Shown: positions 10,168-44,527 of the stretch, in pieces | Layout: the number at the start of each line of letters is the position of its first letter | How positions within the stretch are numbered: position 1 is the first letter of the stretch | NCBI GenBank assembly: GCA_002633005.1 | Contig: NMRA01000194.1 | Span: 313,074 to 377,073, forward strand | Direction: 5' to 3' | Source of the DNA: Phoronis australis | Lineage: Eukaryota; Animalia; Phoronida | DNA length: 64,000 nucleotides | Made by a program: the position numbers and the translations under genes | Notes under the pieces: generated by a model | The model's input: the letters and a program-made list of their open reading frames with translations, nothing else | Database searches by the model: none | Told to the model about the DNA's origin: nothing

Positions 10168-11469
10168 AAAATTTGAACTTCAATCATGCTTAGTTGTTTT
10201 TGTGTCTGTTCTGATTTTTAATATTATAAAACGTTTTCATTAGCTTAAAAAGACACCAAGGCCTGTTTTGACATTTTAACAGGTATTGGAAATGTCTTAT
10301 ATATCCAATCCTCTGAAACAAAATAATGCTTTGTAGCCCACTGACAACCCTCGTAAGTTTGGAGGACATTTTGAAAACTTTTCAAAGTCTGCTATACTGA
10401 CAAGTGTTCGTCAGGGCAACTGTGGGGAAAGACCACCCACCAAGAACCTTAATATTCAACCTCTGTCATGTTGGGTATGAATTTTTAGCCGAGTACTGCT
10501 TTTATTGTTCAAGGTTACCGCCAATGATGCCTTATAGCAGGTGACTAGAACAAGGATTGGCTTAAACTATCAAAACGAGGTTTAGAATCTTTTGTAACCA
10601 AAAGTTAAAAATTTGTAGTCACAGCGATGCCATGGCGGTAATTACAAACGCTTTGTGAGCTAAATGGGTAATCAACAAGGGGCTGCCACCATTCCTTTGA
10701 ACATTGCCGTACAGCTTGAAATTCAAGAAAAGTAGTCTTGTCACATTACACCGACAGGGTAACATGGTTTTGTTAATAGCTGACGGGATTGAATTTCCAA
10801 AAGAGGATCGATTTGTGGGTTGACTGAATCACCGAAACAGGATTGATTTGATCAAGTTGCACCAAATCATCTATTCAGGATTGAATTCATAAAATAGAAA
10901 TGGATTTATAAAATAGGATTGAATTTTTAAAACAGGATTAAAATTTTGCAAAGTAGGATTGATTATTATTTTGAACACGATTGAATGTATTATATAGCAT
11001 TGAATATACAGAATATTTTTATTTTCAATTAATTTTTACACTTTCCGCAGCTCGTAGGAAATTGGTTTCATTTGGATTTGAATTTGAAACTGTTCAGGAG
11101 ATATTTCTAATGTTAGTTGTGCTGAGCCCCAAAATGTGGAGTGTTACTCAAGCTGTAATGTGACATTCTTTACATGCTTTTGTTTTCATTGGTGAAACTT
11201 CTATTGAAAAGGTAACCATGTAATAAATTTCACACTGAAAATGAAATTGAGAAAGTTTTTCTCATTGTTGCTGTGGTGTCTTTCAGGATAATTGTGGGAA
11301 AGCCTCCTGACCGCACAAGCAGTGAACGGTAAGAATATTTTCAGTAAACTCACACACCCTCTAGACATGTGGTCGAAAACCTTGGTGAAATTTAGTCAGT
11401 TTAGCACTCACACTTTATTGCCCCTCTCTATTTGGGATGTTTACGGCATTGTGGGTAAATACAGAAGAA

Positions 11470-19533: not shown

Positions 19534-19945
19534 TTAAGAAAATTGTACATCTTTTGTAAGATGTTTGAATTTTAATAATTTGTTGCAAAGTAATTGGCTT
19601 GTGAAAAAATCAGTCAAAAAGGTAATGTTTACAAATATTTATGGGCAAACTGATAAACTTGAACACATAAATTATTGATTTTTTCTGGAGACTAATTTCC
19701 ATTAAAGCTGATTACTGTAATTTAACTGGTTTTAAAACGATTGTTTATGTAAACTGATGTTTCATCCTAGGCATTGCAGTATTTATATAGTAATCTCAAT
19801 TTTGAGAATTAAGAAAATTTCAAATAAACACAGAAAAATTGCTGATTGTATATATGTTGTCCAAATCCCGTGTGAAAAAGGCGAAACGCCACTCGTGGGA
19901 TGTATGGCTTAACAGTTGGCTGTAAACAGTAATTGCACAGATATC

Positions 19946-20023
19946 GGGACCTCAGTAGCTCAGTGGTGAGGCCACTAGACCGGCAATCTAGAGACCTGTG
20001 GTTTGATTCCCAGTTGGTGTTCC
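19946..20023 (+). other. tRNA-derived module (SINE-like or pseudo-tRNA)
   Basis: A box TAGCTCAGTGG, B-box-like GGTTTGATTCC, anticodon-like arm CTAGA-CCGGCAA-TCTAG, irregular acceptor stem GGGACCTCAG/TTGGTGTTCC. Confidence 0.7.
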
Positions 20024-20049
20024 TGATTTTTCTGTGTTTATTTGATATA

Positions 20050-22466
20050 CCGTAATCGTTCGGGTTAACGCCCTGGGCGGTTAAATTGGCGAATCCAAAA
20101 AATCGGGGGAGGGCGGTTAACTGAGCAGTGGGCGGTTAAATCGAAAATCCACCTAAAGTAGGGGATGGGCGGTTAACCGAACATGGGCGCTTATTATGAC
20201 AGACAACCGCCCTGGGCGGTTAATCTTACCTGGCAATCTAAATCCCGACACGGCAATCATACTCGGAACGCGTAGCCCTTTTCAAAGAGCTTTATCGTCA
20301 CGTCGCCAAATGACTGTGAAAACGTCATAACAGCGGATGATCCCAACAAAGGTTCTCTTGCCCTCAGATTAGTCATTCACTATTAAATTTACAAAATTGC
20401 TGAGTAATAGCCCCGTGCCGTCCTGCGGTGCGCAGACGACCAGTCACCACGCAGCCTCCACTAGAATTAAAACTGTTTCAAGATGTGACCCTGCTTAAGT
20501 GCGCGCGTGCAAGCTTCACGTGTTGCAGAGGTCAGACATCAAATTTATGGTTACAGTCTCGTACTATATGTAGCTGTCAAGTTCTGAGTCAGAGAGCAGT
20601 TTTAAAATTGGTTGTAATAAAAGTTTGAAAAACTTAACTGTGTTTTTTTGTGTTTGGGATGTTATAGTCGACACTCCGTGACTCAATGACATTTTCAGCG
20701 TATGGTTCTGCGGCTAGCTGTCTTATCTCGACAGCCCGGCATTGCTCTCTTGCCGTTGCGCCAAACATGCTATGCAAAGAAGTAAGACAAGGATCGGGGG
20801 TGGTCGAGCCAGTAGTCGATCAAGAAGAAAATTTCAAGCAACTGCATAAATATGTTACAAAATGTCAGAAAACAGCAATGTTTCAATTCATTATTCTAAA
20901 CGATCACCTTACCAAACTTCGTGGTGGAAAAACATTTATTTTTCATGCAAGATGTCCAGATTATCCTATTTATATCACTTGTAATATCGCACTGCGGCAC
21001 TGTTCGGTCCCGCTGTTATCGCGCAATGTCTCAGTCGGCTGACAATCGTGACTTGGAAATGCCGTCAAGTAATATAACGGCCTCTTTCAATGTGCATCTC
21101 GTTTTTTATGGCCAAGGTGGCGGTATTCAGCACGCACGTAGGGCCTACGTGTGAGTCACCTGTCAATCACATGTTGGTGTCAAGGTAACATGCACTCCAA
21201 AGTGTGGGAACTTGCGCACGTGCACCACTACAAATCAGTCACACATAGCGACAGTCCGACGAAGTAACAAAAACGGGCGTGACTATGTACTTTTAAGCTG
21301 TTGTTACGAAAGACCCAGTTCTTTACGATAGTTCTCCGTTGCCAATGTTCCCCAAAACTGCGATGTCAAGTCTATTCCCATAATTCCCGGCTCGATGCTC
21401 CCTAAGCCCATCCCTGTAACTAGCTGCGTGAATCTCCTACCCACTATCGTCAAGCAGTCTACGTCGTAGGTATTTCAGACTCGAATGGTAAGAATTTTTG
21501 TTCAGGCTGAAAATGGCCAATGTATAAGCAAAATTATTCTGGATGGCTAAAAAGGGGATGTGAAACGATAATTCACACAGTCACGCTTACGTGGGGGCTG
21601 ACGCAAGAAATAGTAAAGAACAGCCAGCGACATTAGTTAAATCTGCTAACCAGTTTGACTGAGATGCAATAAGCGAAAAACAAAATTTGACTAGCCGCTT
21701 TTTATTACTTCAAGATCATACACAAACATACATTATTGCCAACGTTTGAATTCAGAAATCGACAGGCAGCTACGAAATCGGTAACCCAGTAAGGCACTTG
21801 TACTGTCCCTTCGGTCGCCCCACATCCTCTATAACCCGGCAGTTATATTCATCGAAATATTGAGAATTTGACATCTTTCCGTGAGTTGTGAGATTTGTTC
21901 AAAATACTAGAGCTTCCCACCTTAATAGAATTTGGAGGGTTGGCAAAACCATTGTCACATTTTTCTGGCCTGATTTTTTCGAATATATGTTTTATCTAGT
22001 GCACTGCAAACGGAAACTCAGCGTGGCAGACAAAGTCTCTGAAAGCGGAGGTTTTGACGCCGGCGTCGTTCTTAAATTTAGCAAACAAGGGAAGAAAATA
22101 AAGTGACAAAACGGTTCAAGTATTATATTTTGAAGTGAGTTCATAACCCAAGACAATAACTCGTTACCTGTATTGTAATTCAGATTGCTAAACCACTGTC
22201 TCGGAGTCATGGCGTCATTGCATTTGTTGTGATCATCGATCTTTTTCTAAGTCGGGGAATCGCGCGTTTCCTTAGCACTAGGCGCTGAATCTTCATTCTT
22301 TAAAAGTCGGGGATGGGCGCTTAACCGAGAGGTGGGCGCTTAACTGGAAATCTTCAAAAATTGCAGGGGGGCGCTTAACCGAGCAATGGGCGGTTAAATC
22401 GAAAATCCACTTAAAGTCGGGGATGGGCGGTTAACTGAGCATGGGCGTTAACCCGAACGATTACGG
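20050..22466. mobile_element. Non-autonomous Tc1/mariner-superfamily (Tc2/pogo-like) element, 2.4 kb
   Basis: TA TSD, perfect 24-bp TIR CCGTAATCGTTCGGGTTAACGCCC, many subterminal GGGCG(G/C)TTAA repeats, and an ~85-bp block repeated directly at ~20105 and ~22366. Confidence 0.95.
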
Positions 22467-22970
22467 TATTTCACCACTGGCCAACCTCAGCATCTATATA
22501 TTTAAGAAAATTTCAGTAAGTGATCGGTAAGCACAATAGTTACAAAAGATGGTGAGTATTTTCTTGTCCAAAAAAATTGATGCTTCATAGCAGAGACTCG
22601 TCTAGGATTTGAAAAGTGGGGTCCAAATTCATGAAAATTACAATGCACGTAGCGCCAAAGGTGGGGGGGGGGGGGAGAATTGGAGGGAAAATGGTAATGT
22701 ACATAAATTAAAAAGGTCATTTCCTTGCATTTTAGCACACTGTATGTTTTTTTCTTGTTCAAAGGGTGACAAAAAAGGAAAGTAAACAAATGTTAAAAAG
22801 TTTGTTGCATTCAGATTGTGTTCCTTGTCACCAGACTGCAAAAATCAAGATCTATAAATTTTTTGTATAAGATAATCTGTGTATGTTAGACAGTGTAGAA
22901 AATAAATCTGAAACTAAATAAGGCGATCCAGATCCTCCCAAGGATACTATTGTTTCACGAAATGCAGAAT

Positions 22971-23055
22971 ATAAATAGGTAAATAAAACAACAAGAATGG
23001 ATCAACTGAAATTTTCGGATGTAATCCATTCTAGTTGTTTTATTTACCTATTTAT
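22971..23055. repeat. 85-bp near-perfect palindrome (mini-MITE or hairpin)
   Basis: ATAAATAGGTAAATAAAACAAC(A/T)AGAATGGAT arms, 31/32 complementary, 21-nt loop. Confidence 0.85.
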
Positions 23056-24632
23056 GTTAGACAGATAATTCAACGCATGACCTCAGAAATCAATGTATCT
23101 TGAATCTCTCAAAAGAGAAGTGTATTACTTTAATGCAGTTAAGGAAGATAAATTAAATTTATGAGAAAACAATGGAGTTGCATTTGAAAGGATACAAAAA
23201 AATATATCCTTGAATTCACGTGACTACGTTCCGTTACACCACATCGTACTGCAATTCATAAGTTTACAGTCAACACTTATCCTCAACAAATTCACAACTC
23301 AGGCGCACCGGCACTCGACACAGGCGAAAATCTCCTCTCGAAAATAGGAGTGACAGCATATTTGCACTCACATTTTTGTACTCGAACTTGGCCTAGTATA
23401 AGATGACGACCCAAAAAAACCTCAGAACTCCGTATTTGAATTTGGCGCTCGTATTTTTACGTTTTCCAATTGTTTTTCGAGCCCATTACTCACAAATTTG
23501 GAGTCGCCTGGAGTTTGGCTATGGTTGTTGTCAGTGGTTGCTACCGTCTTCGGCAGGGGATTATTAATGGATGCTTTGTTGAAATTGACACTTACCAGGT
23601 CCAAAGGCAGTCACAGTCTTTCATACTACGCTACAACAAATTTATTCTTAAAAAGAACCATTCTCTTCTCACAGTTGTAAGAGCCAAATCTCAGCCTGGT
23701 TCACAGCCCAAGTAACAGGTGCTGTGCAGTGACTTCGTGACCTCCTTTTTCCATATGGCAAGCAGTGCCACACACATCACCTCTTGAATTAGAAATAAGT
23801 TTTATATTAATTAAGATATACAAATGATGTCAAATTGTCACATTAAGAAATTTGAGCATGTACGGGACACATCAGTTCCACCTTGTGATTATTTCAGTGA
23901 CGACGGCATCACCCAACGTTCACTTTGATGCCATTAACTACTGAGGCTGGTGTGAAGCTCTGTTCATATGGCAATTGAGTTAGTATGCAAAGGCCTTTAG
24001 ACATTGTACTAAAGAACTCTCAACCAATGACAACAGCACTTTTCTAAGTGTCTACCAACAACTATGGCATTGAGTTTGATAATGCACATATAATGTTTAT
24101 CTGATGACTATAAGCCCCTAACCCAGTTGGTTAAACAGTCAGCCCATGGCCTGAAGATGTCCACTGATCTTCATGTGACCTTGCATTGTTCATCCTCAAT
24201 GTGGGAAGCATTGTTTATTCATATTCAATCCATTCCCAGTATTTACTTGAGAATACTAGCCATGTGGTGTTTAATTCAAGAGAACTTGCCCTAACTCTGA
24301 TGTGGCTTGCAAACAGTATTGATTGGAATAGGTAAAGGCTCTTGTGACCAATCTGTGTCAGAGTCATTTGTAGCTGTATTATGGCTGTACTGACAAAGAA
24401 GTAGCGGCAATTACCAGGAAGATTTGCAAACAAACGTCAACAATCGAATTGTTAAACTTGCAGCAAAAATCAAAGATTTTAACACAGGCAGATGAAGTAT
24501 AGGTGGAGTCTGCAAACTGCAAATGTTGATTTGCCGTACTTAGTTTTGCCTCAAAATGGTTTCTAGATTTGTAATAAGTTATTTTAGGCCCCAATGTTGT
24601 CCAGCCATAAAAAGTTCTGAATTTCCTCTTTA

Positions 24633-27600
24633 CGGTAAAGTCGCGTGATTTTCGGACACTGAAAATTAATTCCAATAGAAAAAATTCATTCTTGGACGAA
24701 TCTCGCGAAATATCATTTTGTGGTGTCCGAATTTGGCGGACCTCCAAATTTGGGTTTCCGCTAGTGTCCGAATTTCGTGGGTGTACATTATTTCGATGAG
24801 CGGTCGTAGTATCAACAATGCTGGCTCGGTCATTTGATAGCAGTATAATTGCAGGTAAATGAGACTCAAATGGTCTGAGCGATTAATTTTTGAAAATCTG
24901 GCTTTCCCAATAAGAAATGTGCGTCGTCGACGCACAAAGACCGTTCCCAACAAGTGTTGGTTCTTCTTTTCAAAGATGTGCTTTCTCAATATGAAATATT
25001 CGGCTTGCATTGCCGATGCTCAAAAACCGTTCTCGGCAAGAGACGGAATCTTTTCAAAACTGCGCTATCTCACTTGAAATATCGGCCGGGCTGCGTTGTG
25101 AAGAGTCTTCCTGGTGACAAATATGGGCTTTTCAATGAGTGGGTCTGGTTTGCGTTGTTGACGCACATGAAACGTTACAGACAACCGATTCTCTTTTGTA
25201 AAAATGCGTTTTCTCAATAAAAAATGTCGAGTTTGCGCTGTCAACGCATGGTTTCCCAATAAAAAGCTGGACTTGCGTATTCGGCGCACAAAGAGGGTTC
25301 CCGACCATCAAAACATGCGCTTTCTCAATTTTAACGAATTTTGCATTAAACGTAACAGTAATGGATGTGGGAACGAGTTCAGTGAAGAAAGTGACGAACA
25401 ATGACAAGAACATAGCATATATTTATGTTTGTTAAACGTATCCATGCATTGTCTGCTGGTTACAAACCGAAACGCAAGTTAACTCTGACACGTTTATTTC
25501 CATATTATCTGAAAGCTCAGTTTCAACATAAAAACTTTGATTGAACAATTACCCAAAACAGATTAAAAAGACAATCATGATAATAAAACGAGTAGTTTCT
25601 CATCTACTCGTGATCCCCATTTGTCGTCCTGGTAGTCGTCTGAATTGTTGAAGAAGCGCTGTCGTTCTACATGTTTAGGCCTACTGCAAACGATGGGAAT
25701 GCGTCGACTAGTACAGTGCTGCGCGGCTGAAGACACGATTAACTAACATATTGTATATATAAGGGCGTTGACTAGAAAGCAAATGCAATTTCAAATGCTA
25801 CCAACATCAAATTCACCCAACCGTTTTTTTACAATTAAAACCTTTCTCATCCACAGCCTTTGAAACGCCCGATATTAACTCAGTGATACACTGGCGCGTC
25901 TTCATGCAACTGAGGTGACCTAACACATCTGGGTTCGCTTACGTTTTCAACCACAGTGAAAACTCTGACTTGTGAAATCTGTTTGTGGATGAAATGAAAC
26001 TGATAATCGTTAGCATTTTCTGATAATCTGCGAGGAAGATAACAGGGCCGTTTCTTCTGGTCGTCACCAGTTTAGCGCCGTCCACGGTCATCACCAATTT
26101 CGCGCAGCTCAGTCTCCCTCAGTCACTACTAATTTACGCCGCCACCCCTCCCCCCCTCGGCCTCCTGCTGCACACCAATGTCGATTTTGTGCCACTAATT
26201 CTAAGGGAGTCTGCTTGGTGCAACCCCCTGCCAAGACCGTTGTTGCGCACGTTGATACAATAGGCTACTGGGCAGATCACGACTGTTAGAAGAATCGACT
26301 AGTGACGACCTGAAAAGAAAAACGAAAGCACTCAATTTGGGACAGGTGAACTCATGAAGGACGTAAACCAGGCAATTCAAGAACCGGTCTACTATTTATA
26401 TACTTAATTTTCTTTCTTAATATACATTTAACCAATTACAATTCATCTATGTCGACCGTTTTCATTTCATTGCGTCATATATTTGCTACAGTTACGGAAA
26501 ATAGTTCTTCCCACAGGTCTCTGCTGATGGACACTACACACTTCTGCTAACATTTAAAGTATGAACAGTCGCGAGTTTACTGAAGTCTCATTATAAGTAC
26601 AGAAATGTTGTTGAAGAATAACAGTGACTATCTGAAGACAGGAATACATAACAAAATAAAATATGGAAGCACCAAACAAAAATCAAAACAACACTTACCT
26701 GTTGCAATAACGCCTTAAATGCGAACGTACTGACCGACTTGCATGAACGGAATGTTAGTTGAACATGTTAGTAGAACAAAACTGTCTCAATGAAATTTTC
26801 ATGGTTTACAGGTTTAAGAAGATCCACCGTAAATTTCCGTATATAAATCCAGAAGAAAATATGGCCAATTTGCGTATCTTAAATTTTTTCCTAAAATATA
26901 CCTAGGATGCATATCTGAGAATAAAAATGCATGCTTGAAATCTAAAAATAATGCTATTCCCACTAGGATATAATTAGGGTGAGCTACAGTATTTATACTG
27001 TGTTCGTGTATTCGGCATTGCTGAGTATAGGCCCTGGTGTATTTTTACATAAGACGTTTGGTTTCCCCAACTTATATACGGAAATCGCTGGTAATACTTC
27101 CCAAAATTATTTACCCTTGCTGCAAGTAAGGCATCACCTCGGGTAAAAATAGAACAATAATAATTAGCAATGTAACAGTCAACACAATTAAACACACTTA
27201 CAGCTGAAATGCCTCTAAAACTATATTAAGTAATACAAAAAACATGGTCTGTAGTTTAAGATCACGTTTCTTTTTTGTCTCAAAACTATCAACTGAAGGC
27301 GGTAACATGGACAAGAAGGCAAGGTCCTGTGGAAAGTAGATATCGAACTCCGGGTCGGAAACACTTATCAGGTTCCAAGCCCGTTGCATCGGACTCCAGG
27401 TCCTGTATTCTTGTTAGCCTACCCCTAGGACCACAAGAAGCAACGACTACCAAATCTGATTCAACTGACTTGTCATTTTTCGAAATGATTGGTGGAGGAT
27501 TTTCTTAGCCGCCGCAGACAGAGAGTGCCACAGGGTCCCGGTGTCCTTGTCGGGATTCATCTTAATCTCGGGACACCATGGAGTTCAGGGTGTTGTACCT

Positions 27601-28957
27601 CAGACGGTACAGGGTGTGAATTAACAAGACCACAAGTACACAGACCAGTGGATGAGCAAGCAAAATTGGGTCGCCGCAAGTTAAATCTTTTTTAGGTTTA
27701 CATCTGGGGTAAAGCTCGTAACGCTAGAACTTCGCTAAAAAGCAAGAATTCATGAAATTACCTGATGTATTGTGTTTTTGAATTGAAAGCGTGATTTTGG
27801 CTAGATTTTTGTATTTCCCAAGACAGCTACTGAACTCTACCCTAGTCTGCGACCAGGGGCGCAAGGGTGAGAATCTCACGAACACGCTAGACTGAAGACG
27901 TCGAGACGTTTGGTGAGGCATTGCAAACGAAGCACACGATCACACTATCTTCTTTAGCGAGATTCTTGCATCTGCGATGCTTATCAGAGAGCAACAGACA
28001 ATTTGTAAGGGTAATGAAACGTGGTTACGTGGATGTACATTAGTTTTTGATATGTGTTATAGCACACCGGCGCTTACACAACATAGGACAGGGATGCAAT
28101 GTCTCTGTAACAATTGCGTGTGCGCCGCGCCCCTTTCTGAGTGCTGGGCCTTGCACTATGTTTGATTTTTAACCAGCTTTACTTTGGCTCCGTCTCATTC
28201 GGCTGCTGCTGTTCACTATCTACACTACTTTGAACGCGCGATATCCTACGGACAGACTTAGCTGTGGCCTATTGTGAATGGGGGCCTAAACAAAAAATAT
28301 TTCTCATCACGTCAAGAATAAAATCGGGACACGTCGCCGGAGATTTTAGCCACTAACAAGGGCATTTGCAAAGGCCAGGACGTTTTAAAAATAAAAACGT
28401 TTCGTAAACACGCAAGTTGATGTCAGGCGTGCAAGTTCAATGTCACAGTCCGAAGTCGAACAACACGGTCTAATTAAACCAGAGCACATGTTACGCTACA
28501 ACGAAAAACTGCAGCCTTCGGTGTATTTCCCATTTGTATTTTCATCAGAAATTTTCGTCATGCGGGACTCGGTGACTCTTTCCATAGCTAAAGCGCCAAA
28601 CACAAGCTAAACGCAAGACAATCCAGTAACGGTCATGACATCGTCAAGACAAGGTAAAAATTACAAAGCCCGTTACACCAATTCTCAGATTCAAGCCTTA
28701 TAGAGTAGTAATCATCCGTTGAACGCTTTAGTGACACGGGAGTTGCGTCAATCCCAAATTAGCGTTTCTAAAATTTTCCTTGTCCGAAAGTCGCGGGGCA
28801 AAAATCCGACGTTTATGACATTGTCCGAAGTTCGAAGATCATTAAAAAACAGTTTTTGGACCTTGTACGAATTTCGTGGACTATGAAAAACTCATTTCGG
28901 AAATATTTATTCTTGGTCGAAAATGGCGGGCCGTCCGAAAATCACGCGACTTTACCG
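24633..28957 (+). mobile_element. 4.3-kb non-autonomous TA-flanked Tc1/mariner-type element, copy 1 (strand arbitrary)
   Basis: TA TSD at 24631-2 and 28958-9, 25-bp TIR CGGTAAAGTCGCGTGATTTTCGGAC, subterminal GTCCGAA repeats. Full-length reverse complement of 35263-39581. Confidence 0.95.
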
Positions 28958-30267
28958 TATACTCTAGTGGCCAGAAATGGTTACTTAGAAAACTTTGGTT
29001 ATATAAGGTTTTTTGTTGTATCATGTTTAGGTTGAAGTATTTTAGCTGGGTTGTAATATTGACCACTTTGAACATTTTTATTTGTTCAAATTAAAGACAC
29101 CATTTCCAAAATTCTTATTTACTTGTAAATTCCTTAACAAGCACTGCAAGTAGATTCACCCAGTAAATTTAATGAAGCTACATTGAGAATTTGTAAGTTG
29201 AGATATCCATTATTTATAATTCTGCTTATGCTTGTGGCAGCTGTGGTATTAGGTACTACTGGTAAATTATATTGATATTTGAACCCACCTTTTCTGCGGT
29301 CTTATTAATTCAACGAAATCTGGTGTGTAGCTTGTTGCCTGATAAATTTCCATAATTTATGCAAATAAATCGTCCATTATGTTTCTGCTCACACCTTTAA
29401 AATAATAGCTTTCTTGGTTCTGATTTGCACCCGATTCATTTCAAAACCTACGCCTCACTGTTTAAAAAAGCACTCCCAAGCATAATTGTTGTGATTTTTT
29501 TCAAAAGCGTATCTAAGCTATTTTTTATTGCATTGGCGTGGCAACTCCGTGGCATTCCCGTCTCTCATGACCTTAGAGTAACTTGGTTTTGACTCGGGTA
29601 TTGCGTACACCTGTTAGGGAATATTTAAGGCTACAAAATACCCAATGTGTTGCGAATGACATGCGGCTTATGTGCGACGAGTTTACTGCATTATTACTGA
29701 TTGACGTTTTGTGTTGACTGTACTGACTTTTTCACAACAATGACTTCCCTTGTTTCATTTTCAAGGTTCTCTTACACTGCCGTGAATGCCCACAGTTCTT
29801 CAAAATATTGTCTGTTATTGGTACTTGTAACACAGAACTTGAATGTGGAAAGCATCATTTTGTTGCTATCTGTCATTTTTGACGAAACGAGAAAACAAAA
29901 TTTCACATATCCGCCATAATGCGTCCTAAAGTTGTAAGATTTTAACGTTGTATTTTTGAGTACCAGCCGTGGCAAGGATGTAGCTTGCTGTGGACGAGAT
30001 TTTCCTGTCAAGTGGCATTTGTTCTACACAAACTGGAGTTGGCATCTGACCCGATGAACCTGATGACTCATGTTAAATTTGCTTTTTCTTACCCAACCCT
30101 GACTTTTCTGAGAGGAGTGGGCATGGTATGTTATGCTTATTTAGCAGTGTGCAAGTGATATCAACACCACTACACCTCGATAAATAATTTGTGTAATAAT
30201 TTAAAGAAGCATTTCTTTTTGAGCCACTATGTTATTACTGCCCTAAAAGATCTGTTTATTGCAGGGA

Positions 30268-30411
30268 ATGGCTCGACCTCGACTATTGCCATGTATTAGG
30301 TCACAACGGAGAGCCTATTTGCTCCTGTTCGCTGGGTTCTTCATATCAGTCTGCATCATGAACCTGACTATAAGTGCACTCCATTACCAACGCTCAAGTA
30401 AAGCCGTCAAG
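30268..30411 (+). CDS. MGAT5: MGAT5-like (GnT-V) coding exon 1: cytoplasmic tail and type II signal-anchor
   Basis: Acceptor tctgtttattgcag|GGA at 30264/5, ATG 30268, donor AAG|gtaagg at 30411/2 (phase 0). Encodes MARPRLLPCIRSQRRAYLLLFAGFFISVCIMNLTISALHYQRSSKAVK (basic tail plus hydrophobic TM), and joins in frame to exon 2. Confidence 0.8.
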
Positions 30412-31194
30412 GTAAGGAACTCAGCATCATATGTGGCACTCACATGCTGTCCAGTCACAAGGTAGACCTGTTGTCTGATCTGTTGACTTAAAAAATTCTC
30501 ATGTGAACCCTCGTCAGTCATCTGATCTACTTTCTTATAGTCTGTCCCCAAATTTTCCGACAGATCTGCCGTCTTACTTTGAGAAAGCTACACTTGAACG
30601 ATAGAACTTGTGGTTAGGCTGTTTGCCTGATGTAATCTAACCATATCATTTGCATTATGTACATAATGTAACACCATACGACAAATGCTTAAAAAGGCTA
30701 CAAACCCACATTCTATATAATTATATGATTTTGGCAGATAGTATAGTTATTTGGAATCAATAACTCTCCATAGTGTCCGCTCATACCTTCACATTGATCT
30801 CTGGTGTGGAGGGCTTTGTCCAGGATTTCCAGGTTGTTGTGTCCAAATTGTAGTTCCCAATTTTTCAGAGCATCCATGACTATTGGCGCCTGACACCGTT
30901 TTTCGCGACCCCTAGTCAACTTTGCATTACTACAGATAAGTGGGGTTCATGTGCGGAAATAAAGTACTCAAGTTTTAGATCATACTAATAAACTTTATTC
31001 ACAGTAAGGCACAGACTTTGACAATATTTACAGTATTTGCAGAGACAGAACTTGCATCAAACGGAACAAATATTTTCATGAGTCTAGATACTCTAAACCA
31101 GACACACTGATTTTAAAATTATCCAAAAGCCCACTTTTAGAGAAAAAAAAAATCATAAGGTATTCACATATAAACAGCAGAGTAGTTTGCTATT

Positions 31195-31460
31195 TGTACC
31201 TGAATAGTTTCTAATTTGAATAGCAGAGTTGTTTGCCAACAGCCTTAGTTTGCTGTACACCTGCACAGTCACTGTAGATATAAGGGAATGATGTCTGTTT
31301 TGAAATATGTGATATGTCTCACAGAATTCAATTGATTGTTCTTTTGTCCATTCCGAGCATCTGGAAGTTATTTCAAAATCTTCCACAAAAACGGTAGCTC
31401 ACTGCCAAACCAGTTACGAAAACATGCCGTTGAAAGCCCAAACATAGACTCCTTCCTTGA
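31195..31460 (+). mobile_element. Degenerate CR1/L2-group LINE ORF2 3' remnant
   Basis: Frameshifted NSLSLLYTC..VDI...SQNS...RASGSYFK..KTV...L.KHAVESPNIDSF resembles the LINE C-terminal consensus LLYKI...TRNSH...YKYSFFPRTI.EWN.LP..VV..PS.DSFK. Confidence 0.4.
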
Positions 31461-32177
31461 ATTGGGGGATGTTATAATAAAACAATTGTCTTCCACAATC
31501 GATCAAGAAAAAAACTGGTTTTCAAACCCCAACAATGTGATAATTACAGATATATTACTAATATATGATGATGAAAACTGACGTATTGATCTCCTTTTTG
31601 TGAAAAATAACTGTATATGAATGAGTTCTCTGAGCATTTCCATTGTGTATAAAGTTCACTTAATGTCTGTGGTTACAACTGAGTGGCAACAGATGTCTCA
31701 TTTGGAAATTAATCCCGCATTACTTGCACCCTCATATTAATTCAGGAAGTGTGTGATATCATTTAAAGCTAATACCTTACTAGCTGGAACTCAGTGCTAC
31801 ACACATGTACTAGCTAGTGTTGGGGAATCGACTTTCACTGTGTTTACGCTAGACATGAGAAATTGCTATTATGATGGAATAATTAACTTGCATACTATAA
31901 AAGGGAACAGCATTGTGATAATTTCAGGTGAATAACCTCGCCAGGAAGCATGTGCTTCCAGTCAAATTTTCTGCAAAATTCCAGAATTGTACTCGGAAAA
32001 GGCACATTTTCTCTGAAATCAGAAAGATTGCAGAATTTAATTTTCTACTCAACACAAATCTGACTTCACATGAACATGTTTCCTTGTACTAGAATTTAGC
32101 ATTGTTGCAGGAAAGATAAAGCATTATCAGCATGGTCAGATTTCATTTCACATAAATATTAATGAACAGATCTCAAA

Positions 32178-33483
32178 ATGCGCCGACATATTTATGTGAT
32201 ATGTGGGTGCACATTGCCGTCATCTCTGTCCCAGTGTCTGCGGCTGTATCTCCTAAATCCCTTGTAGGAACTTATTGAAATTTGGCAGGTGTTTTTCTAT
32301 AGGGTTGACGACAGAGGGCGACAAGTTTCGGACCGACCCAAATACCACTGTGCCTCCTAGTGGCAATTCTAGTTTTTTACGTTTACATCTGTATCTTTAA
32401 AGGTCCTCAACCGATTTTCATGAAATTTGGCACATAGGCATCTATTAATGAGATGACGTTATCCTCACGTTTACAGATGGATTCGAGGCATTTTGCGCCA
32501 TCTAGTGGCCACTTTTACTATTTTTGAGTCCGTTTTTGGCATCCATCCCTCTATCAACCAAACCACTCTAAGGATGATTGCGAAAATTGGCATGTATGTT
32601 CTTACTATGAAGAGGATGGATGACGATGCTTTTCCGACGACTTCCACTACTGTGGCATCTCCTAGTGGCAGTTTTGTTTGTTTTTGTGCCCATGGCTGTA
32701 TCTCCTAAACGCTCCACAGGATCTTCATTAAATGTTGCAAGTGTGTTTATATGAAGTTAACAACGAACGATGACGACGACTTTTGGACAGATTGGACTAC
32801 AGGTGTGCCCCCTAGTGGCAATTTTATTTTTTACGTTTACCACTGTATCTTCAAAGGATTTCTATAAAATTTGGCACATAGGCATCTAATAATGAGATGA
32901 CGCTATCATCTTGTTTTCGGATGAATTCGAGGTATTTTGCGCTACCTAGTGGCCATTTTTTACTGTTTCGAGTCTTATTTTGGCATCCGTCCCTCCATCA
33001 ACCGAACCACATTAAAGATGATTGTGAAAATAGGCACGTATGTTGTCACAATTATGAGGACAGTTGAGGACGATTTTCCGACTTCGACTACTGTGGCGCC
33101 TCCTAGTGGCAGTTTTGTTTGTTTTTGCGCCCGTGGCTTTATCTCCTCAGTCCTCTGCAGAAAGTTTATTAAAGTTAACAAGTGTATTTAGCGGTATATG
33201 ACGTTGACAACAGAAGACGACAACTTTCAGACGGATTCGATGAACCTTTGTCCCCAAGTGGCAATTTCATTTTTTCCGTTTTGCTAAAATTTCTTGATGG
33301 ATTTTAATGAAATGTGGTAAGTAGGTTTCTGTTAAAAAACGGTGACATTTTCCAGTTGTGTGATGGATTCGAAATATTTTGCACTATCTAGTGGCCATTT
33401 TTATGATACAAATAAACACCCTAGAAGCACACCGTTTGCAGTTCATTCGTTGGTGCATTTCAACGCTCCGCATTGCTCTTGTT
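32178..33483 (+). mobile_element. HINE family A copy
   Basis: Head TGCGCCGACA...TGTGGGTGCA, CTAGTGGC monomers, tail GGTGCATTTCAACGCTCCGCATTGCTCTTGTT. Confidence 0.85.
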
Positions 33484-34380
33484 TATTTTGTGTAGCTTTT
33501 AAGATGAAAACTGATATTTTCATAAAAATCATTAATTAAAGCCTCAATTTTTGACTGTATCTTATTCAAAAACAAGCCCATTTAGTCTGGAGAACAATGT
33601 GGATAGCATAGTTTCAGTCTGCTATAAAGCTGTTTTTGAGTTTCCATGTTGGCAAAATTTGGAAATGTTGTCACTCATAAATATAACTTTTAATGTGGAG
33701 GTAAAAGTTAATAATGAAATTAATTACAGCATGAACAGCTAAACCATTAATGGGCTGGTAAATTTGTATTTATAATTTACGGCTTAAAAATCAAAGTGAT
33801 CTGACATTAGATTGCCAATCACAAAAAAGACAGGAGGTTGTTAGTTTTAAAATATTTTATTTAAAACATAAACGTTTTTACAAACAACAAACTTCTTGAG
33901 CAAAATTGAGGTTTATAAATAAATGAGTCAGAGTATCACTTTCCAAATCACTGTGAAGACAGGTTTTACACGAAATAATAAAAATGTAATAATAGAGTAA
34001 ACGCGGCGTGCATTAGCAGGTAGTTCAGGAGATAGACTTACTGGAATTATAGCCGTCAGACTTAAATAAGTAATGTGCGTACAACTGGACTCAAGCCAGG
34101 ACACTCTGAAAGAAGCGTCTTCTCACCAGAGGTACCGTATACACCCAAGACAGCCTTCAAAACTGCCCAGAGTCATATGACTAGTACTCCAGCTCACCAT
34201 AATGAAAACAACACACACACAGGGATGAACACAGTGGTAGCACCGCATGATGCCACAAGAGAGAATACTACATTCACAACAATACTGATTACAACCCCTT
34301 GTTAATATGGACATCAACAAAAGCAGAAAAGTAAATATTTACCAGCTGTATAAGGTGCCAGACCTGTCCAAAATGACCTG

Positions 34381-34781
34381 GGCCCGGTCTCTATTCTTTG
34401 TACTCGAAACAAACTCGAAACTATTTTTGGCAATTTCTCTGCTCCTTTTGTGCGAACTTAAGATAATTGGTTATCAGACTGTGCTCGAATACATTATAGT
34501 TTATGCATAGGAGTTTCTAGTTCAAGTTTGCCCTTGAAGACCCTTATATTCGTGCTACAAACTCGAGAAAAAACTTGAAATTTCGAGTTCAAACTCGAAC
34601 TTATTGCTTTAATATTGGGTTTACAAACTGTGAACTAAGGGCAATAAATTATCTACGTAAGTTATTGTGTACTCGAGCATAGAATAATAGACACTTATCT
34701 TGAGTTCACCCAAAAGTAGATTAGAAAATGCCAAACCTAATTTTGAGTTCCATTTCGAGTAAAAAGATTGGAGACCAGGCC
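34381..34781. mobile_element. PIF/Harbinger-like MITE
   Basis: CTG 3-bp TSD, ~30-bp TIR GGCC(C/T)GGTCTC(T/C)A(T/A)TCTTT(G/T)TACTCGAAA, repeated ACTCGA motifs. Confidence 0.75.
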
Positions 34782-35262
34782 CTGGTACCAATATCCTAAA
34801 TGTGCAGTATCACAGCATAAAAATGAGATTTTTATTTCTGCTGCTATGCAGTTACTAACTACTGTGTATTACACTATGTATTGCAGGAAGAACTTAACAT
34901 GGAAACTTGCATATCTATTATATATCTATAAAATAAAAAATAAAACATCTAAAAAATACTACAGAGCACAACTAAACATAAAAGCATCCACAATCTCTCT
35001 GTCATATAAAACATACGTCTTACAAAATATACAACACGGAGTACACAAATCAGGTTAGCAACTTGGTCTACAAAATACGATTGCCAGTAAGAAGATCTAG
35101 GTCAGCACTATCAAATTTGTTTAACGAATATTCTATAGCTAACCAAAGGACAAAACTCATTTGTATCTACGGCATCAGGAAATGATGGACTCGCATCTAC
35201 AGTACCTCAGTAAATGCACTCAAGCCCAGGCGTGCGTTCAGTAGATGCTAGGACCTATGCTA

Positions 35263-38200
35263 CGGTAAAGTCGCGTGATTTTCGGACGGCCCGCCATTTT
35301 CGACCAAGAATAAATATTTCCGAAATAAGTTTTTCATAGTCCACGAAATTCGTACAAGGTCAAAAAATGTTTTTCAACTATCCCCAAATTTCGGACAATG
35401 CCATAAACGTCGGATTTTTGTCCCGCGACTTTCGGACAAGGAAAATTTTTAGAAACGGTAATTTGGGATCGACACAACTCCCGTGTCACTAAAGCGTTCA
35501 ACGGATGATTACTACTGTATACGGCTTGAGTCCGAGAATCGGTATAACGGGTTTGTAATTTTTACCTTGTCTTGACGATGTCACGACCGTTACTCGATTG
35601 TCTTGCGTTTAGCTTGTGTTTGGCGCTTTAGCTATGAAAAGAATCGCCGAGTTCCGCATGACGGAAATTTCTGATGAAAATACAAATAGGAAATACACCG
35701 AAGGCTGCAACTTTTCGTTGTAGCGTAACATGTGCTCTGGCCGTGCTGTTCGACTTCCGACTGTGACATTGAACTTGCACGCCTGACATCAACTTGCGTG
35801 TTTACGAAACGTTTTTATTTTTAAAACGTCCTGGCCTTTGCAAATGCCCTTGTTAGTGTCTAAAATCTCCCGACGACGTGTCCGGATTTTATTCTTGTCG
35901 TGATGAGAAATATTTTTTGTTTAGGCCCCCATACACAATAGGCCACAGCTAAGTCTGTCCGTAGGATATCGCGCGTTCAAAGTAGTGTAGATAGTGAACA
36001 GCAGAAGCCGAATGAGACGGAGCCAAAGTAAAGCTGGTTAAAAATCAAACATAGTGCAAGGCCCAGCACTCAGAAAGGGGCGCGGCGCACACGCAATTGT
36101 TACAGAGACATTGCATCCCTGTCCTATGTTGTGTAAGCGCCGGTGTGCTATAACACATATCAAAAACTAATGTACATCTACGTAACCACGTTTCATTACC
36201 CTTACAAATTGTCTGTTGCTCTCTGATAAGCATCGCAGATGCAAGAATCTCGCTAAAGAAGATAGTGTGATCGTGTGCTTCGTTTGCAATGCCTCACCAA
36301 ACGTCTCGACGTCTCTTCAGTCTAGCGTGTTCGTGAGATTCTCACCCTTGCGCCCCTGGTCGCAGACTAGGGTAGAGTTCAGTAGCTGTCTTGGGAAATA
36401 CAAAAATCTAGCCAAAATCACGCTTTCAATTCAAAAACACAATACATCAGGTAATTTCATGAATTCTTGCTTTTTAGCGAAGTTCTAGCGTTACGAGCTT
36501 TACCCCAGATGTAAACCTAAAAAAGATTTAACTTGCGGCGACCCAATTTTGCTTGCTCATCCACTGGTCTGTGTACTTGTGGTCTTGTTAATTCACACCC
36601 TGTACCGTCTGAGGTACAACACCCTGAACTCCATGGTGTCCCGAGATTAAGATGAATCCCGACAAGGACACCGGGACCCTGTGGCACTCTCTGTCTGCGG
36701 CGGCTAAGAAAATCCTCCACCAATCATTTCGAAAAATGACAAGTCAGTTGAATCAGATTTGGTAGTCGTTGCTTCTTGTGGTCCTAGGGGTAGGCTAACA
36801 AGAATACAGGACCTGGAGTCCGATGCAACGGGCTTGGAACCTGATAAGTGTTTCCGACCCGGAGTTCGATATCTACTTTCCACAGGACCTTGCCTTCTTG
36901 TCCATGTTACCGCCTTCAGTTGATAGTTTTGAGACAAAAAAGAAACGTGATCTTAAACTACAGACCATGTTTTTTGTATTACTTAATATAGTTTTAGAGG
37001 CATTTCAGCTGTAAGTGTGTTTAATTGTGTTGACTGTTACATTGCTAATTATTATTGTTCTATTTTTACCCGAGGTGATGCCTTACTTGCAGCAAGGGTA
37101 AATAATTTTGGGAAGTATTACCAGCGATTTCCGTATATAAGTTGGGGAAACCAAACGTCTTATGTAAAAATACACCAGGGCCTATACTCAGCAATGCCGA
37201 ATACACGAACACAGTATAAATACTGTAGCTCACCCTAATTATATCCTAGTGGGAATAGCATTATTTTTAGATTTCAAGCATGCATTTTTATTCTCAGATA
37301 TGCATCCCAGGTATATTTTAGGGAAAAATTTAAGATACGCAAATTGGCCATATATTCTCCTGGACTTATATACGGAAATCTACGGTGGATCTTCTTAAAC
37401 CTGTCAACCATGAAAATTTCATTGAGACAGTTTTGTTCTACTAACATGTTCAACTAACATTCCGTTCATGCAAGTCGGTCAGTACGTTCGCATTTAAGGC
37501 GTTATTGCAACAGGTAAGTGTTGTTTTGATTTTTGTTTGGTGTTTCCATATTTTATTTTGTTATGTATTCCTGTCTTCAGATAGTCACTGTTATTCTTCA
37601 ACAACATTTCTGTACTTATAATGAGACTTCAGTAAACTCGCGACTGTTCATACTTTAAATGTTAGCAGAAGTGTGTAATGTCCATCAGCAGAGACCTGTG
37701 GGAAGAACTATTTTCCGTAACTGTAGCAAATATATGACGAAATGAAATGAAAACGGTCGACATAGATGAATTGTAATTGGTTAAATATACATTAAGAAAG
37801 AAAATTAAGTATATAAATAGTAGAATGGTACTTGAATTGCCTGGTTTACGTCCTTCATGAGTTCACCTGTCCCAAATTGAGTGCTTTCGTTTTTCTTTTC
37901 AGGTCGTCACTAGTCGATTCTTCTAACAGTCGTGATCTGCCCAGTATCCTATTGTATCAACGTGCGCAACAACGGTCTTGGCAGGGGGTTGCACCTAGTA
38001 GACTCCCTTAGAATTAGTGGCGCAAAATCGACATTGGTGTGCAACAGGAGGCCGAGGGGGGGGGGGCGGCGTAAATTAGTAGTGACTGACGGAGACTGAG
38101 CTGCGCGAAATTGGTGACGACCGTGGACGGCGCTAAACTGGTGACGACCAGAAGAAACGGCCCTGTTATCTTCCACGCAGATTACCAGAAAATGTTAACG

Positions 38201-39581
38201 ATTATCAGTTTCATTTCATCCACAAAAAGATTTCACAAGTCAGAGTTTTCACTGTGGTTAAAAACGTAAGCGAACCCAGATGTGTTAGGTCACCTCAGTT
38301 GCATGAAGACGCGCCAGTGTATCACTGAGTTAACATCGGGCGTTTCAAAGGCTGTGGATGAGAAAGGTTTTAATTGTAAAAAAAAACGGTTGGGTGAATT
38401 TGATGTTGGTAGCATTTGAAATTGCATTTGCTTTCTAGACAACGCCCTTATATATACAATATGTTAGTTAATCGTGTCTTCAGCCGCGCAGCACTGTACT
38501 AGTCGACGCATTCCCATCGTTTGCAGTAGGCTTAAACAATCATGTAGAACGACAGCGCTTCTTCAACAATTCAGACGACTACCAGGACGACAAATGGGGA
38601 TCACGAGTAGATGAGAAACTACTCGTTTTATTATCATGATTGTCTTTGTTATCTATTTTGGGTAATTGTTCAATCGAAGTTTTCATGTTGAAACTGAGCT
38701 TTCAGTTAATATGGAAATAAATGTGTCAGAGTTAACTTGCGTTTCGGTTTGCAACCAGCAGACAATGCATGGATACGTTTAACAAACATAAACATATGCT
38801 ATGTTCTTGTCATTGTTCGTCACTTTCTTCACTGAACTCGTTCCCACATCCATTACTGTTACGTTTAATGCAAAATTCGTTAAAATTGAGAAAGCGCATG
38901 TTTTGATGGTCGGGAACCCTCTTTGTGCGCCGAATACGCAAGTCCAGCTTTTTATTGGGAAACCATGCGTTGACAGCGCAAACTCGACATTTTTTATTGA
39001 GAAAACGCATTTTTACAAAAGAGAATCGGTTGTCTGTAACGTTTCATGTGCGTCAACAACGCAAACCAGACCCACTCATTGAAAAGCCCATATTTGTCAC
39101 CAGGAAGACTCTTCACAACGCAGCCCGGCCGATATTTCAAGTGAGATAGCGCAGTTTTGAAAAGATTCCGTCTCTTGCCGAGAACGGTTTTTGAGCATCG
39201 GCAATGCAAGCCGAATATTTCATATTGAGAAAGCACATCTTTGAAAAGAAGAACCAACACTTGTTGGGAACGGTCTTTGTGCGTCGACGACGCACATTTC
39301 TTATTGGGAAAGCCAGATTTTCAAAAATTAATCGCTCAGACCATTTGAGTCTCATTTACCTGCAATTATACTGCTATCAAATGACCGAGCCAGCATTGTT
39401 GATACTACGACCGCTCATCGAAATAATGTACACCCACGAAATTCGGACACTAGCGGAAACCCAAATTTGGAGGTCCGCCAAATTCGGACACCACAAAATG
39501 ATATTTCGCGAGATTCGTCCAAGAATGATTTTTTTCTCTTGGAATTAATTTTCAGTGTCCGAAAATCACGCGACTTTACCG
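35263..39581 (-). mobile_element. 4.3-kb non-autonomous TA-flanked Tc1/mariner-type element, copy 2 (inverted relative to copy 1)
   Basis: TA TSD at 35261-2 and 39582-3, same TIR. ORF-track translations are mirrored, and many are identical to copy 1. Confidence 0.95.
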
Positions 39582-40358
39582 TAGGACCTAGCCAAAAGCT
39601 AGTCAAGGTCACGTGCTCTTATTTAAAATACACGGCAATATCTCGCGTAATCTCGCAAAGTCTTGCTTTTAAGCTAGGTCCTAGCGTTACTGAACGGGAG
39701 GCAGGGCTCCTGCTTCATGAAAGTTTAAGTCTAGACACTTTCCATTGTTGGCATGATGTCATCAGCACTATTCAACAAGTTATGTAATTATTGAAGAGTC
39801 AAGAGGGTAGGCTAGCCTATTACAATGATCTATAGGTCAACAAGTACTTCAACCAATATTGGTTCCTAGGTTTGAGCTAATGTGATCCCAGCATGTTTTC
39901 ATGATGAAATTTTAGGTTTGTTAGGTAGGCCTACTTTTGAGTGAAATATAGTTTAATGAAATGAAAAGTTCCAAGATTATGGAATCGTAAATTAATAATC
40001 TTGTGTTAAAATAATTCATACACTACTGGTAACGTGAGATAATTTATACGCCTAAACATGCAGAGTTACCCCACTGATGTTACAGAGACTGCTTTCCAAA
40101 ACTTGGTGGTGGTACTGTTTACTTTGATATATTAATGTTTTCCCCTTGTTTCCAACTTGTTTGATTCTATAGCCTAATAAGTTGGGAAGATGACCCCTGT
40201 AGCCAATATCTTACATGAGTAATATAACTCCATTCTGGCATTTATGGTTGGAGGGCCAGCTCTCTTTTGTTCGATAATTGCTCTAATCTCCAATAAGATG
40301 GTATCTAGCCTGACTGGGCTGTGCTGCTAAAAATAAAAGTTAAATAACATATTTGAAC

Positions 40359-41480
40359 ACTAGAAAGATTATTGTCACAGCCTTACAATAACAGACTCTG
40401 CTGCATGCCTATTACTAGAATTATTATGGGAAGTTACTGACAGCAACCCGTTTACCAATATGAAAAGGAATTCTTTAAAATTGAAGGAGAAATTACATAT
40501 TAATTTTTTGATGACCTTTCCACTAATTGACCTCTTCCGGTGCATTATGAGCCCCGATGAGGGAGTAATTGTTAACTCGATTAAAAGTGTGGTTAATGCT
40601 AATAATCACAGATGTTTTACTTTAAGCACTTCAGAATACAAGATGAATGAATTGGACAAACTTTCAGAAGAAAAATGAACCTAATGACCCCATGGGTGCA
40701 CCAAGTGACCTGAAAATTTAGAATTCAAACTCTATCGCTCTTAGTAAACAGATACGTAATTCTGAAGTCTCTAGCTCAAAATTTTAGTTTGCACTCAATG
40801 ACCTTTGACCTATTTTTTCTGATTGGTTAGACCTATTGCGAAGTAAAGTAGGGTATTCAATTGACATGTTGACTTACACCAGTGTGCTGGAATTCCTTGA
40901 AAATGTGTTTAAAGCTGAGAATCACAGTTGTCTAACGGCTAACACATCAGAATACTTGCTGATTGAAAAGGTCAAATTTTCAGAAGAAAATGCACCTAAT
41001 GACCCCATGTTTGCACTAAATGACCTGAAACTTTGGATTCCGATTTGATTTACCTGTGGCAATCAGACCTGTCAATTTGAAGGGTCTAGCTCAAAATTTT
41101 AGTTTGCACCTAATGACCTTTGACCATTTCACCTGATTGGATGACCCGATTACTTAGAAAAGTAATTTTTTAAATTGTCATGTTGACTGATACCTGTGCA
41201 TCTAATTTGAAAAAGATAGCTTTAAAACTGAAGGAGGAGTAGCATTTTGAAAATTATATGACCTTTGCACCAAACGACCTCTTCCGGTGCAATATGGAAT
41301 ATGATTATATAACCAATCAAAATTTATATACTGTCAAAAGTCATATGCTGAATTTAAAGACCGTACCTGCACCCAATTTGGAGTTATTAAGCCTCAAAGT
41401 TGGTCGGAAGAAGAATAAGAATAAAATTGAAGAAAACCCAGGAACAACAATACTCTGCGCTTACACGCGCAGAGTATTAA
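40359..41480 (-). mobile_element. HINE family C (Helentron/Helitron-type non-autonomous element)
   Basis: Minus-strand head hairpin AATACTCTGCGC-gtgtaa-GCGCAGAGTATT with TTATTC/TTC repeats. Internal ~316-bp duplication (CCTAATGACCCCATG at 40680 and 40996). 3' GCAGAGT subTIR, TTATTGT..ACAATAA hairpin and CTAGT end. Confidence 0.75.
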
Positions 41481-43059: not shown

Positions 43060-43590
43060 CTTAGTGCGTGATTGGATTAGTTTGAAAAGTTATTCGAACA
43101 CAACGAAATGTGATACATAATGTAATACATAATGTAATACATAATGTGATACTAATTGACAAGAATCTTTTCAAAGGTCTTTTAAACACATTTTGCTAAT
43201 TTCGAACAGAATGAACTAAACGAGTCGAAAAGCGTAGATAAATATTCATATGCACGTAGGGCCTGAGCCAAAGTACTTTGAAAAACGCCTCAACAAACAA
43301 CAAATTCAAAAGTGTAATGCATGGTTTTGCAGTATTTTTCGTCAGGAATTTGAACACAATATCAAAAGTGACCTCCGAGTAAAAGGTAAGAAGTTGTGTT
43401 TTTACAACTGAAAACAACTAGGCTGAAGTAGTAATTTTTATGACCAGTGTACACAGATCATACTATGGGACTCCTTATGTATGTAAATCTTATGCTGATA
43501 AACCCACTGAAATCTTTTGTGTGATACAGGACACTTCGCTTTGTATAACGCAGTGCTTTCGAGCTTTACCTCACCAAGCTCTGCTGCAAT
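43060..43590 (+). repeat. Dispersed repeat, copy 2 (homologous to 11820-12280)
   Basis: Same blocks as copy 1, plus a local (ATACATAATGTA/G)x3 expansion at ~43108-43151. Confidence 0.8.
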
Positions 43591-44427: not shown

Positions 44428-44527
44428 GATGACATCCTGTCTCTGAGTCGGCTCTACATAAAGAAATTAGCTGAAGAAAATGGTGATGTTGTGGATGGCC
44501 CGTATGCTGGTCGCTACACAGGCTTCG
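44428..44527 (+). CDS. MGAT5: MGAT5-like coding exon 2
   Basis: gtttcag| DDILSLSRLYIKKLAEENGDVVDGPYAGRYTGF |gtaagg (phase 1). Matches the recalled MGAT5 stem motif ILDLSKRYIKALAEENRNVVDGPYAG. Confidence 0.95.

What the first reader, a model, noticed from the sequence alone, without database searches (positions are those of the whole stretch)
24631..39583. Two 4.3-kb transposon copies form a giant inverted repeat enclosing the MGAT5-like start-codon exon
Seen: near-identical 4325-bp and 4319-bp elements, each with its own TA TSD, in opposite orientation around a 6.3-kb spacer (28958-35262). The spacer holds the exon with the ATG and signal-anchor (30265-30411). That exon begins with a splice acceptor, so copy 1 probably lies in the upstream intron. 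Established: long inverted repeats flanking an exon promote back-splicing and skipping (Alu pairs, mouse Sry), form ADAR substrates, and mediate recurrent inversions (F8 intron 22). Inference: the pre-mRNA could form a ~4.3-kb duplex looping out the ATG exon. Arm-to-arm crossover would flip that exon and switch the glycosyltransferase off. The outer TIRs could also mobilise the 15-kb unit as a composite transposon.
Basis: partly seen in the sequence, partly recalled or inferred. Interest (0 to 1): 0.78.

Follow-up and report, generated by a model that had tools for sequence, protein, structure and literature searches.

The report
Inverted transposon pair around MGAT5 exon
Two nearly identical 4.3-kb copies of an abundant jumping-DNA family face each other across the start-codon exon of a sugar-branching enzyme gene (MGAT5); they are likely recent chance insertions that could pair in the RNA and make the exon skip, but the RNA reads we could lay show only normal splicing of that exon, and skipping and DNA flipping remain untested.

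Summary
Arms 24633-28957 (4325 bp) and 35263-39581 (4319 bp) are inverted, 97.5% identical, TA-flanked, with 25-bp terminal repeats and no transposase. RNA reads splice a non-coding exon ending at 11328 to 30265, and 30411 to 44428, so both arms lie in one transcript around the MGAT5 ATG exon. The element belongs to a family of roughly 70-400 copies. Three arm differences are common family variants, so two independent insertions are likelier than a local copy, and a close inverted pair is expected by chance (0.015-1.6 per genome under assumed sizes). No back-splice joint was listed in three RNA data sets, and the 147-nt exon is below the 300 nt reported for efficient circularisation. No A-to-G excess was seen, but arm reads come mostly from other loci. 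Skipping, inversion, copy 2's junctions and the RNA donors' genotypes were not testable. One oddity remains: 735 and 1126 bp without a substitution beside 2-6% divergence, which fits family mosaicism or arm-to-arm conversion. The layout is known (TBXT, laccase2), and this scan noted it before in other genomes.

The parts
11287..11328 (+). Non-coding 5' exon of the MGAT5 gene (no ATG); its donor joins 30265
   Evidence: Joint 11328 to 30265 in X4, X5, X6; loose ends in X4, X5, X7; 5' edge from AG context and 43-45 letters of read on that side
24631..24632 (.). TA target site, outer side of copy 1
24633..28957 (+). Copy 1: 4325-bp non-coding element with 25-bp terminal inverted repeats, in the 18.9-kb 5'UTR intron
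   Evidence: inner junction also in X1 and X3 contigs (only 21 letters inside the arm)
24686..25420 (.). 735 bp with no difference between the arms
26905..28030 (.). 1126 bp with no substitution between the arms (one 2-bp indel)
28451..28957 (.). Most diverged part of the arms, next to the spacer: 32 substitutions in 507 bp (6.3%)
28958..35262 (.). 6305-bp spacer including the two inner TAs
30265..30411 (+). 147-nt MGAT5 exon with the ATG (30268) and a predicted signal anchor
   Evidence: next exon enters PF15027 at position 46
35263..39581 (-). Copy 2: 4319 bp, inverted, in the 14.0-kb intron after the ATG exon
   Evidence: its junctions were not checked against reads
39582..39583 (.). TA target site, outer side of copy 2
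44428..44527 (+). Second coding exon (MGT5A_N); its five ATGs are all out of frame
   Evidence: joined to 30411 in X4 and X5

Best explanation
Two members of an abundant, non-coding, TA-targeting transposon family sit head to head in the two long introns around the MGAT5 start-codon exon, likely as separate, recent and unselected insertions, and the exon is spliced in normally in the RNA examined. Shown: both arms lie in one transcript, the family is high-copy, the arms encode no transposase. Inferred: an autonomous Tc1/mariner-type element elsewhere moved two different family variants into these introns; the opposite orientation is chance. In carriers the arms can pair in the pre-mRNA only if the upstream intron is still unspliced when arm 2 is made 4.9 kb past the exon. 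Any effect would likely be partial skipping (a message without the ATG and membrane anchor, so a null) rather than a circle, because the exon is only 147 nt. That would be a mild side effect of insertion, not a built switch.
For: Arm depth in X1 is 1700-2900 in inner bins against 6.7 for a single-locus contig; one variant contig alone gives about 74 copies. Expected close inverted pairs: 0.015-1.6 per genome for 70-400 copies and an assumed 0.5-1 Gb; 13 of the 23 bins outside the arm in 11200-31150 are other high-copy repeats. Three of the six arm positions shown in the variant table (25948, 26847, 28624) are arm-1/arm-2 differences whose copy-2 letter is common among other copies; a fourth (26853) differs between the arms but the family shows a third letter. 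Normal splicing: 16 and 14 reads into the exon; 24 in and 6 out in X5, 9 in in X7, both joints in X4 contigs; no back-splice row. Only exons of 300 nt or more circularised efficiently between laccase2 repeats (PMC4617980, passages). No transposase: 0 of 56 arm frames, 0 of 97 other frames.
Against: The RNA donors carry other spacer haplotypes (X4 and X5 differ from the window at 29084, 29690, 32019) and may lack one or both copies, so normal splicing there may not test carriers. A 220-297-nt perfect inverted pair suffices to skip a mouse Tbxt exon (PMC10901737, passages), and this pair is far longer. Only 40 of 1719 variant rows were shown, so the family-variant argument rests on few sites. 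Copy number and genome size are rough; the tool warns that summed depth is no copy number. The two substitution-free tracts also fit conversion between the arms. Copy 1 seems present on both chromosomes of S1 (unbroken contig 28937-31364 in X3 that carries the other letter at 30093), so it may not be a rare allele.
Confidence: 0.68

Rival explanations
1. TBXT-type loop-out: in carriers the arms pair efficiently and a large share of transcripts skip the ATG exon, lowering MGAT5 activity. Compatible with a chance origin.
For: Both arms are co-transcribed; it is the only long inverted match between the two introns; precedent in TBXT, C. elegans zip-2 and enrichment of inverted Alu pairs within 5 kb of skippable exons.
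Against: The exon is included in all four RNA data sets examined; the loop is 6.3 kb, and the TBXT paper treats the 4188-bp pair as the weaker one against 1448 bp; the exon has GT-AAG donor and canonical acceptor like the gene's other exons.
Confidence: 0.22
2. The arms recombine with each other: the identical tracts are conversion tracts, and crossovers flip the spacer, giving recurrent null alleles or somatic mosaics.
For: 735 and 1126 bp with no substitution beside 1.7-6.3% elsewhere (0 of 20000 permutations). Precedent: Galileo pairs, F8 int22h.
Against: The spacer is in its working orientation. No near-fixed difference between copy 1 and the family was shown inside those tracts, as shared private variants would give (top 40 rows only). 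TA is palindromic, so exchanged target sites cannot be read.
Confidence: 0.12
3. Assembly artefact: one copy duplicated, or two insertions from different haplotypes placed on one contig.
For: No whole genome and no long reads were available; copy 2's junctions were not checked.
Against: 90 differences, distinct flanks with a TA at each of four ends; copy 1's inner junction is in X1 and X3 contigs and seems to be on both S1 chromosomes.
Confidence: 0.05
4. A 15-kb composite (sandwich) transposon that has moved or can move the exon.
For: The outer ends are matching terminal repeats with TA outside; engineered Sleeping Beauty sandwiches carry over 10 kb.
Against: The engineered form needs disabled inner ends; here they are intact. 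The spacer is in place between its own exons and single-locus in depth. No transposase is in the window.
Confidence: 0.02

Closest known systems
Hominoid TBXT exon 6 flanked by inverted AluSx1 and AluY (PMC10901737, passages read)
   Same: Two independently inserted repeats in opposite orientation in the introns around one coding exon
   Different: Arms here are 4.3 kb at 97.5% rather than 297 nt with 228 matches; loop 6.3 kb rather than 1.4 kb; the exon holds the ATG so skipping would be a null; skipping is not shown here
Drosophila laccase2 and PlexA circular RNAs flanked by inverted DNAREP1_DM (PMC4617980, passages read)
   Same: Inverted transposon copies in long introns around an early exon
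   Different: There the repeats are very close to the exon and exons needed 300 nt or more; here 1.3 and 4.9 kb away, 147 nt, and no circle seen
Non-autonomous IS630-Tc1-mariner elements (PMC7325037, passages read; the Tc2/pogo-like end motif is recalled, not confirmed by a call)
   Same: TA target, terminal repeats of about 25 bp, many near-identical copies
   Different: 4.3 kb without transposase, so no family within the superfamily can be assigned
Galileo-mediated inversions in Drosophila buzzatii (PMC2775673) and F8 int22h (PMC3211038), passages read
   Same: Long, similar, oppositely oriented copies that can cross over
   Different: No inverted allele, chimeric arm or exchanged target site is shown here
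Sleeping Beauty sandwich vector (PMC4229213, passages read)
   Same: Two whole elements head to head around a cargo
   Different: Engineered, inner ends mutated, transposase supplied; none applies here

Membership tests
Non-autonomous Tc1/mariner-type element | TA target site at both ends | tested here: met
   All four ends; other sites diverge right after the TA. Duplication itself not seen, as no empty site was found
Non-autonomous Tc1/mariner-type element | Short terminal inverted repeats | tested here: met
   25 bp, perfect, both copies
Non-autonomous Tc1/mariner-type element | Dispersed multi-copy family | tested here: met
   Depth ratio at least 74; 13 flank contigs in X3
Non-autonomous Tc1/mariner-type element | Autonomous partner with DDE/D transposase and the same ends | not testable with these tools
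   No genome; end motif absent from metagenome contigs
Autonomous DNA transposon | Transposase gene | tested here: not met
   0 of 56 frames of 40 aa or more in copy 1 reach a Pfam cut-off, none a transposase family
MGAT5 (GnT-V) gene | MGT5A_N followed by Glyco_transf_18 | tested here: met
   PF15027 at 44428 and 51498 above cut-off; PF15024 at 56173 (E 2.4e-5) and 60020 (E 0.017), both under the whole-protein cut-off as single exons
Repeat-driven loop-out or circRNA locus | Both arms in one pre-mRNA around the exon | tested here: met
Repeat-driven loop-out or circRNA locus | Back-splice junction | tested here: inconclusive
   None listed in X4, X5, X7; with 30 junction reads a 20% share would be listed with 96% odds, 10% with 59%; library type and genotypes unknown
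Repeat-driven loop-out or circRNA locus | Skipped junction 11328 to 44428 | not tested
ADAR substrate | A-to-G clusters in locus-specific arm reads | tested here: inconclusive
   A>G plus T>C places are 45% and 44% of transitions in X5 and X6 against 53% in X1, over the whole 20-kb stretch; arm reads come mostly from other loci
Repeat-mediated recurrent inversion | Inverted allele or chimeric arms | not testable with these tools
   Only short reads and contigs available
Composite (sandwich) transposon | Cargo moved or inner ends disabled | tested here: not met
   Inner terminal repeats intact; spacer in place and single-locus

The most novel reading that the evidence does not exclude
The two substitution-free tracts are scars of arm-to-arm recombination: the 6.3-kb spacer flips repeatedly, so a pair of DNA transposons makes a reversible on/off switch for the ATG exon of MGAT5 and so for N-glycan branching in an animal, with loop-out skipping tuning output in the forward orientation.
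Probability: 0.07. Interest if true: 0.75.

Novelty: new member of a known kind. Interest (0 to 1): 0.27.

Why it matters
The layout is familiar, so the locus matters mainly as an extreme natural test case: 4.3-kb arms at 97.5% around a start-codon exon. If carriers splice normally, it shows that fast splicing can override even a very long potential duplex across a 6-kb loop. If they skip the exon or flip the spacer, it is a transposon-made null or switch of the enzyme that adds the beta-1,6 branch to N-glycans (function from general knowledge). Neither is shown.

Tried and rejected
No whole genome was held, so copies could not be counted directly. No RNA holder was listed by the index; RNA runs came by species label. 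An empty-site joint for copy 1 was not among the 15 of 450 joints shown nor the 24 of 85 loose ends shown: no verdict on polymorphism. A retrocopy as the source of spliced joints in X4 was dropped: X4 has both joints, exon depth 43 against intron 3-8, and 176 M letters against 406-503 M, so it behaves as intron-rich RNA. Local hopping of copy 1 as the origin of copy 2 is disfavoured, since arm differences include common family variants. A test that copy 2's two flanks are colinear with an old repeat (to show no net inversion) was inconclusive: score gain 4, reached by 260 of 2000 shuffles. End-motif scans of metagenome contigs found nothing. A homologue search with exon 51498 and a PDB search with exon 60020 found nothing useful, so the lineage is not fixed here. 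Rfam: 0 in 24000-40000. The exon region folds no better than shuffles (z 0.09). The natural Paris sandwich of Drosophila virilis is recalled; searches did not find it. Sry was seen only as reference titles. No search was made for papers on this locus, so no claim is made that it is unpublished. Supplements were not read.

Full report
Observation. Self-BLAST gives 24631-28959 against 39583-35261 at 97.53%. The arms are 4325 and 4319 bp, differ by 81 substitutions and 9 indels, end in perfect 25-bp inverted repeats, and each has TA on both sides with unrelated sequence beyond. The spacer is 6305 bp; the 147-nt exon 30265-30411 lies 1307 nt from arm 1 and 4851 nt from arm 2.

Host gene. The exon encodes 48 residues from an ATG at 30268 with a hydrophobic stretch. 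It has no Pfam match, but exon 44428 enters MGT5A_N at profile position 46, exon 51496 continues it, and exons 56173 and 60020 match the start of Glyco_transf_18 (4 of 7 exons matched an MGAT5 family). RNA reads fix the structure: a GT..AG joint from 11328 to 30265 on the sense strand in 16 (X5) and 14 (X6) reads, and loose ends from 30411 into 44428 in X5 (6 reads) and X4. The upstream exon has no ATG, and all five ATGs of exon 44428 are out of frame, so skipping would remove the start and the membrane anchor. Both arms are therefore in one pre-mRNA, in introns of 18.9 and 14.0 kb. X4 was listed as 'DNA?' but holds both spliced joints with exon depth 43 against intron 3-8, so I treat it as intron-rich RNA.

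The element. No frame of 40 aa or more in copy 1 matches a transposase (0 of 56), nor do 97 longer frames elsewhere in the window. It is a high-copy family: summed depth in X1 is 1700-2900 in inner bins against 6.7 for a single-locus contig, and one variant contig gives a floor of about 74 copies (depth is a rough guide only). Other insertion sites match through the terminal TA and then diverge (13 contigs in X3, agreement 0.42; 40 reads in X5). TA target plus short terminal repeats fits a non-autonomous IS630-Tc1-mariner element (PMC7325037, passages); without a transposase this is likeness, not membership of a named family.

Chance. For 70-400 copies and an assumed genome of 0.5-1 Gb, 0.015-1.6 inverted pairs within 6.3-10 kb are expected from this one family. 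The genome has many such families: 13 of the 23 bins outside the arm in 11200-31150 have depth over 300. Of six arm positions shown in the variant table, three are arm differences whose copy-2 letter is common in other copies (25948, 26847, 28624), one differs between the arms with a third letter in the family, and two are not arm differences. This favours two insertions from different family variants over a local copy. Only 40 of 1719 rows were shown.

An oddity. Differences are clumped: 0 substitutions in 735 bp and in 1126 bp, 2.7% and 1.7% in the segments between and after, 6.3% in the 507 bp next to the spacer; the longest identical run, 991 bp, was reached by 0 of 20000 permutations. Either the insertions are very young (under 0.16% private change, tracts chosen after the fact) and the family is mosaic, or the arms have converted each other. 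The first is favoured only weakly: no near-fixed difference from the family was shown in those tracts.

Consequences tested. Back-splicing: on 28905-32180 the whole joints table has one row, a DNA joint, so no 30411-to-30265 joint reached 3 reads in X5 or X7 or a contig in X4. With 30 junction reads this excludes a share of about 20% or more, not 10%; library type is unspecified and about a fifth of each run was read. Exons under 300 nt circularised poorly between laccase2 repeats (PMC4617980, passages). Editing: A>G plus T>C places are 45% and 44% of transitions in X5 and X6 against 53% in X1, but arm RNA depth (about 36 and 27 on the two strands) dwarfs unique intron depth (0-1.2), so these reads come from other loci. 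Skipping was not tested. Inversion cannot be tested with short reads. A composite transposon has no support: inner ends are intact, unlike the engineered sandwich (PMC4229213, passages), and the spacer is single-locus and in place.

The main gap. The RNA donors differ from the window in the spacer (X4 and X5 at 29084, 29690, 32019), and no empty or filled site was shown for them, so their normal splicing may not test the pair. In S1, contigs of X1 and X3 run from the last 21 letters of arm 1 unbroken into the spacer, and differ from each other at 30093; I infer that both S1 chromosomes carry copy 1. Copy 2's junctions were not checked. Precedent warns against dismissing skipping: 220-297-nt inverted pairs skip a mouse Tbxt exon (PMC10901737, passages), matches in flanking introns promote both skipping and circles in C. 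elegans (PMC8330042, passages), and inverted Alu pairs within 5 kb are enriched around skippable exons (10.1101/2025.03.07.642063, abstract and one section).

Comparison and verdict. It works, if at all, like TBXT or laccase2 at the RNA level and like Galileo or F8 int22h at the DNA level (PMC2775673 and PMC3211038, passages; PMC13704881, abstract). Earlier notes of this scan describe the same layout in three other genomes without a shown effect; none covers this element or place. What is unusual here is arm length, identity and the enclosed ATG. Best reading: recent chance insertions with at most a side effect on splicing (0.68). Interest 0.27; new member of a known kind.

Noticed in passing
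window 35240-35262 and 39582-39595: Copy 2's target site lies in a 12-bp tandem duplication that spans the insertion point; possibly a footprint of an earlier excision or repair.
   Followed up: partly
window 8262-9756, 13966-14499, 15688-16345, 32242-33403, 44802-47490, 56493-56729: Six arrays or pieces of a roughly 450-bp repeat unit, all on the same strand, 64-93% alike; the family is heavily transcribed in one direction (74 against 2 in X5 at 13864-14529).
   Followed up: no
window 26829-27093: Degenerate inverted repeat nested in the arm, like a small element; a family variant lacks 26897-27038 (142 bp).
   Followed up: partly
window 27718-27809 and 39594-39690: An old repeat nested in the arm also lies just outside copy 2 (72% over 97 bp), so copy 2 probably inserted into a relative of its own cargo.
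   Followed up: partly
window 16564-17942 and 20043-22473: Two other high-copy TA-flanked elements with terminal inverted repeats in the same intron, depth 5000-16000 in X1, no Pfam match.
   Followed up: no
window 430-511 and 640-781: Possible promoter and further 5' exons of the gene (donor-like sites at 511 and 781, a YY1-like motif near 686, motif recalled); outside the laid stretches.
   Followed up: no
window 24901-25305: Degenerate internal array of about 75-80-bp units, 70% alike, near the outer end of the element.
   Followed up: no
run X4: Listed as 'DNA?' but behaves as intron-rich RNA.
   Followed up: yes
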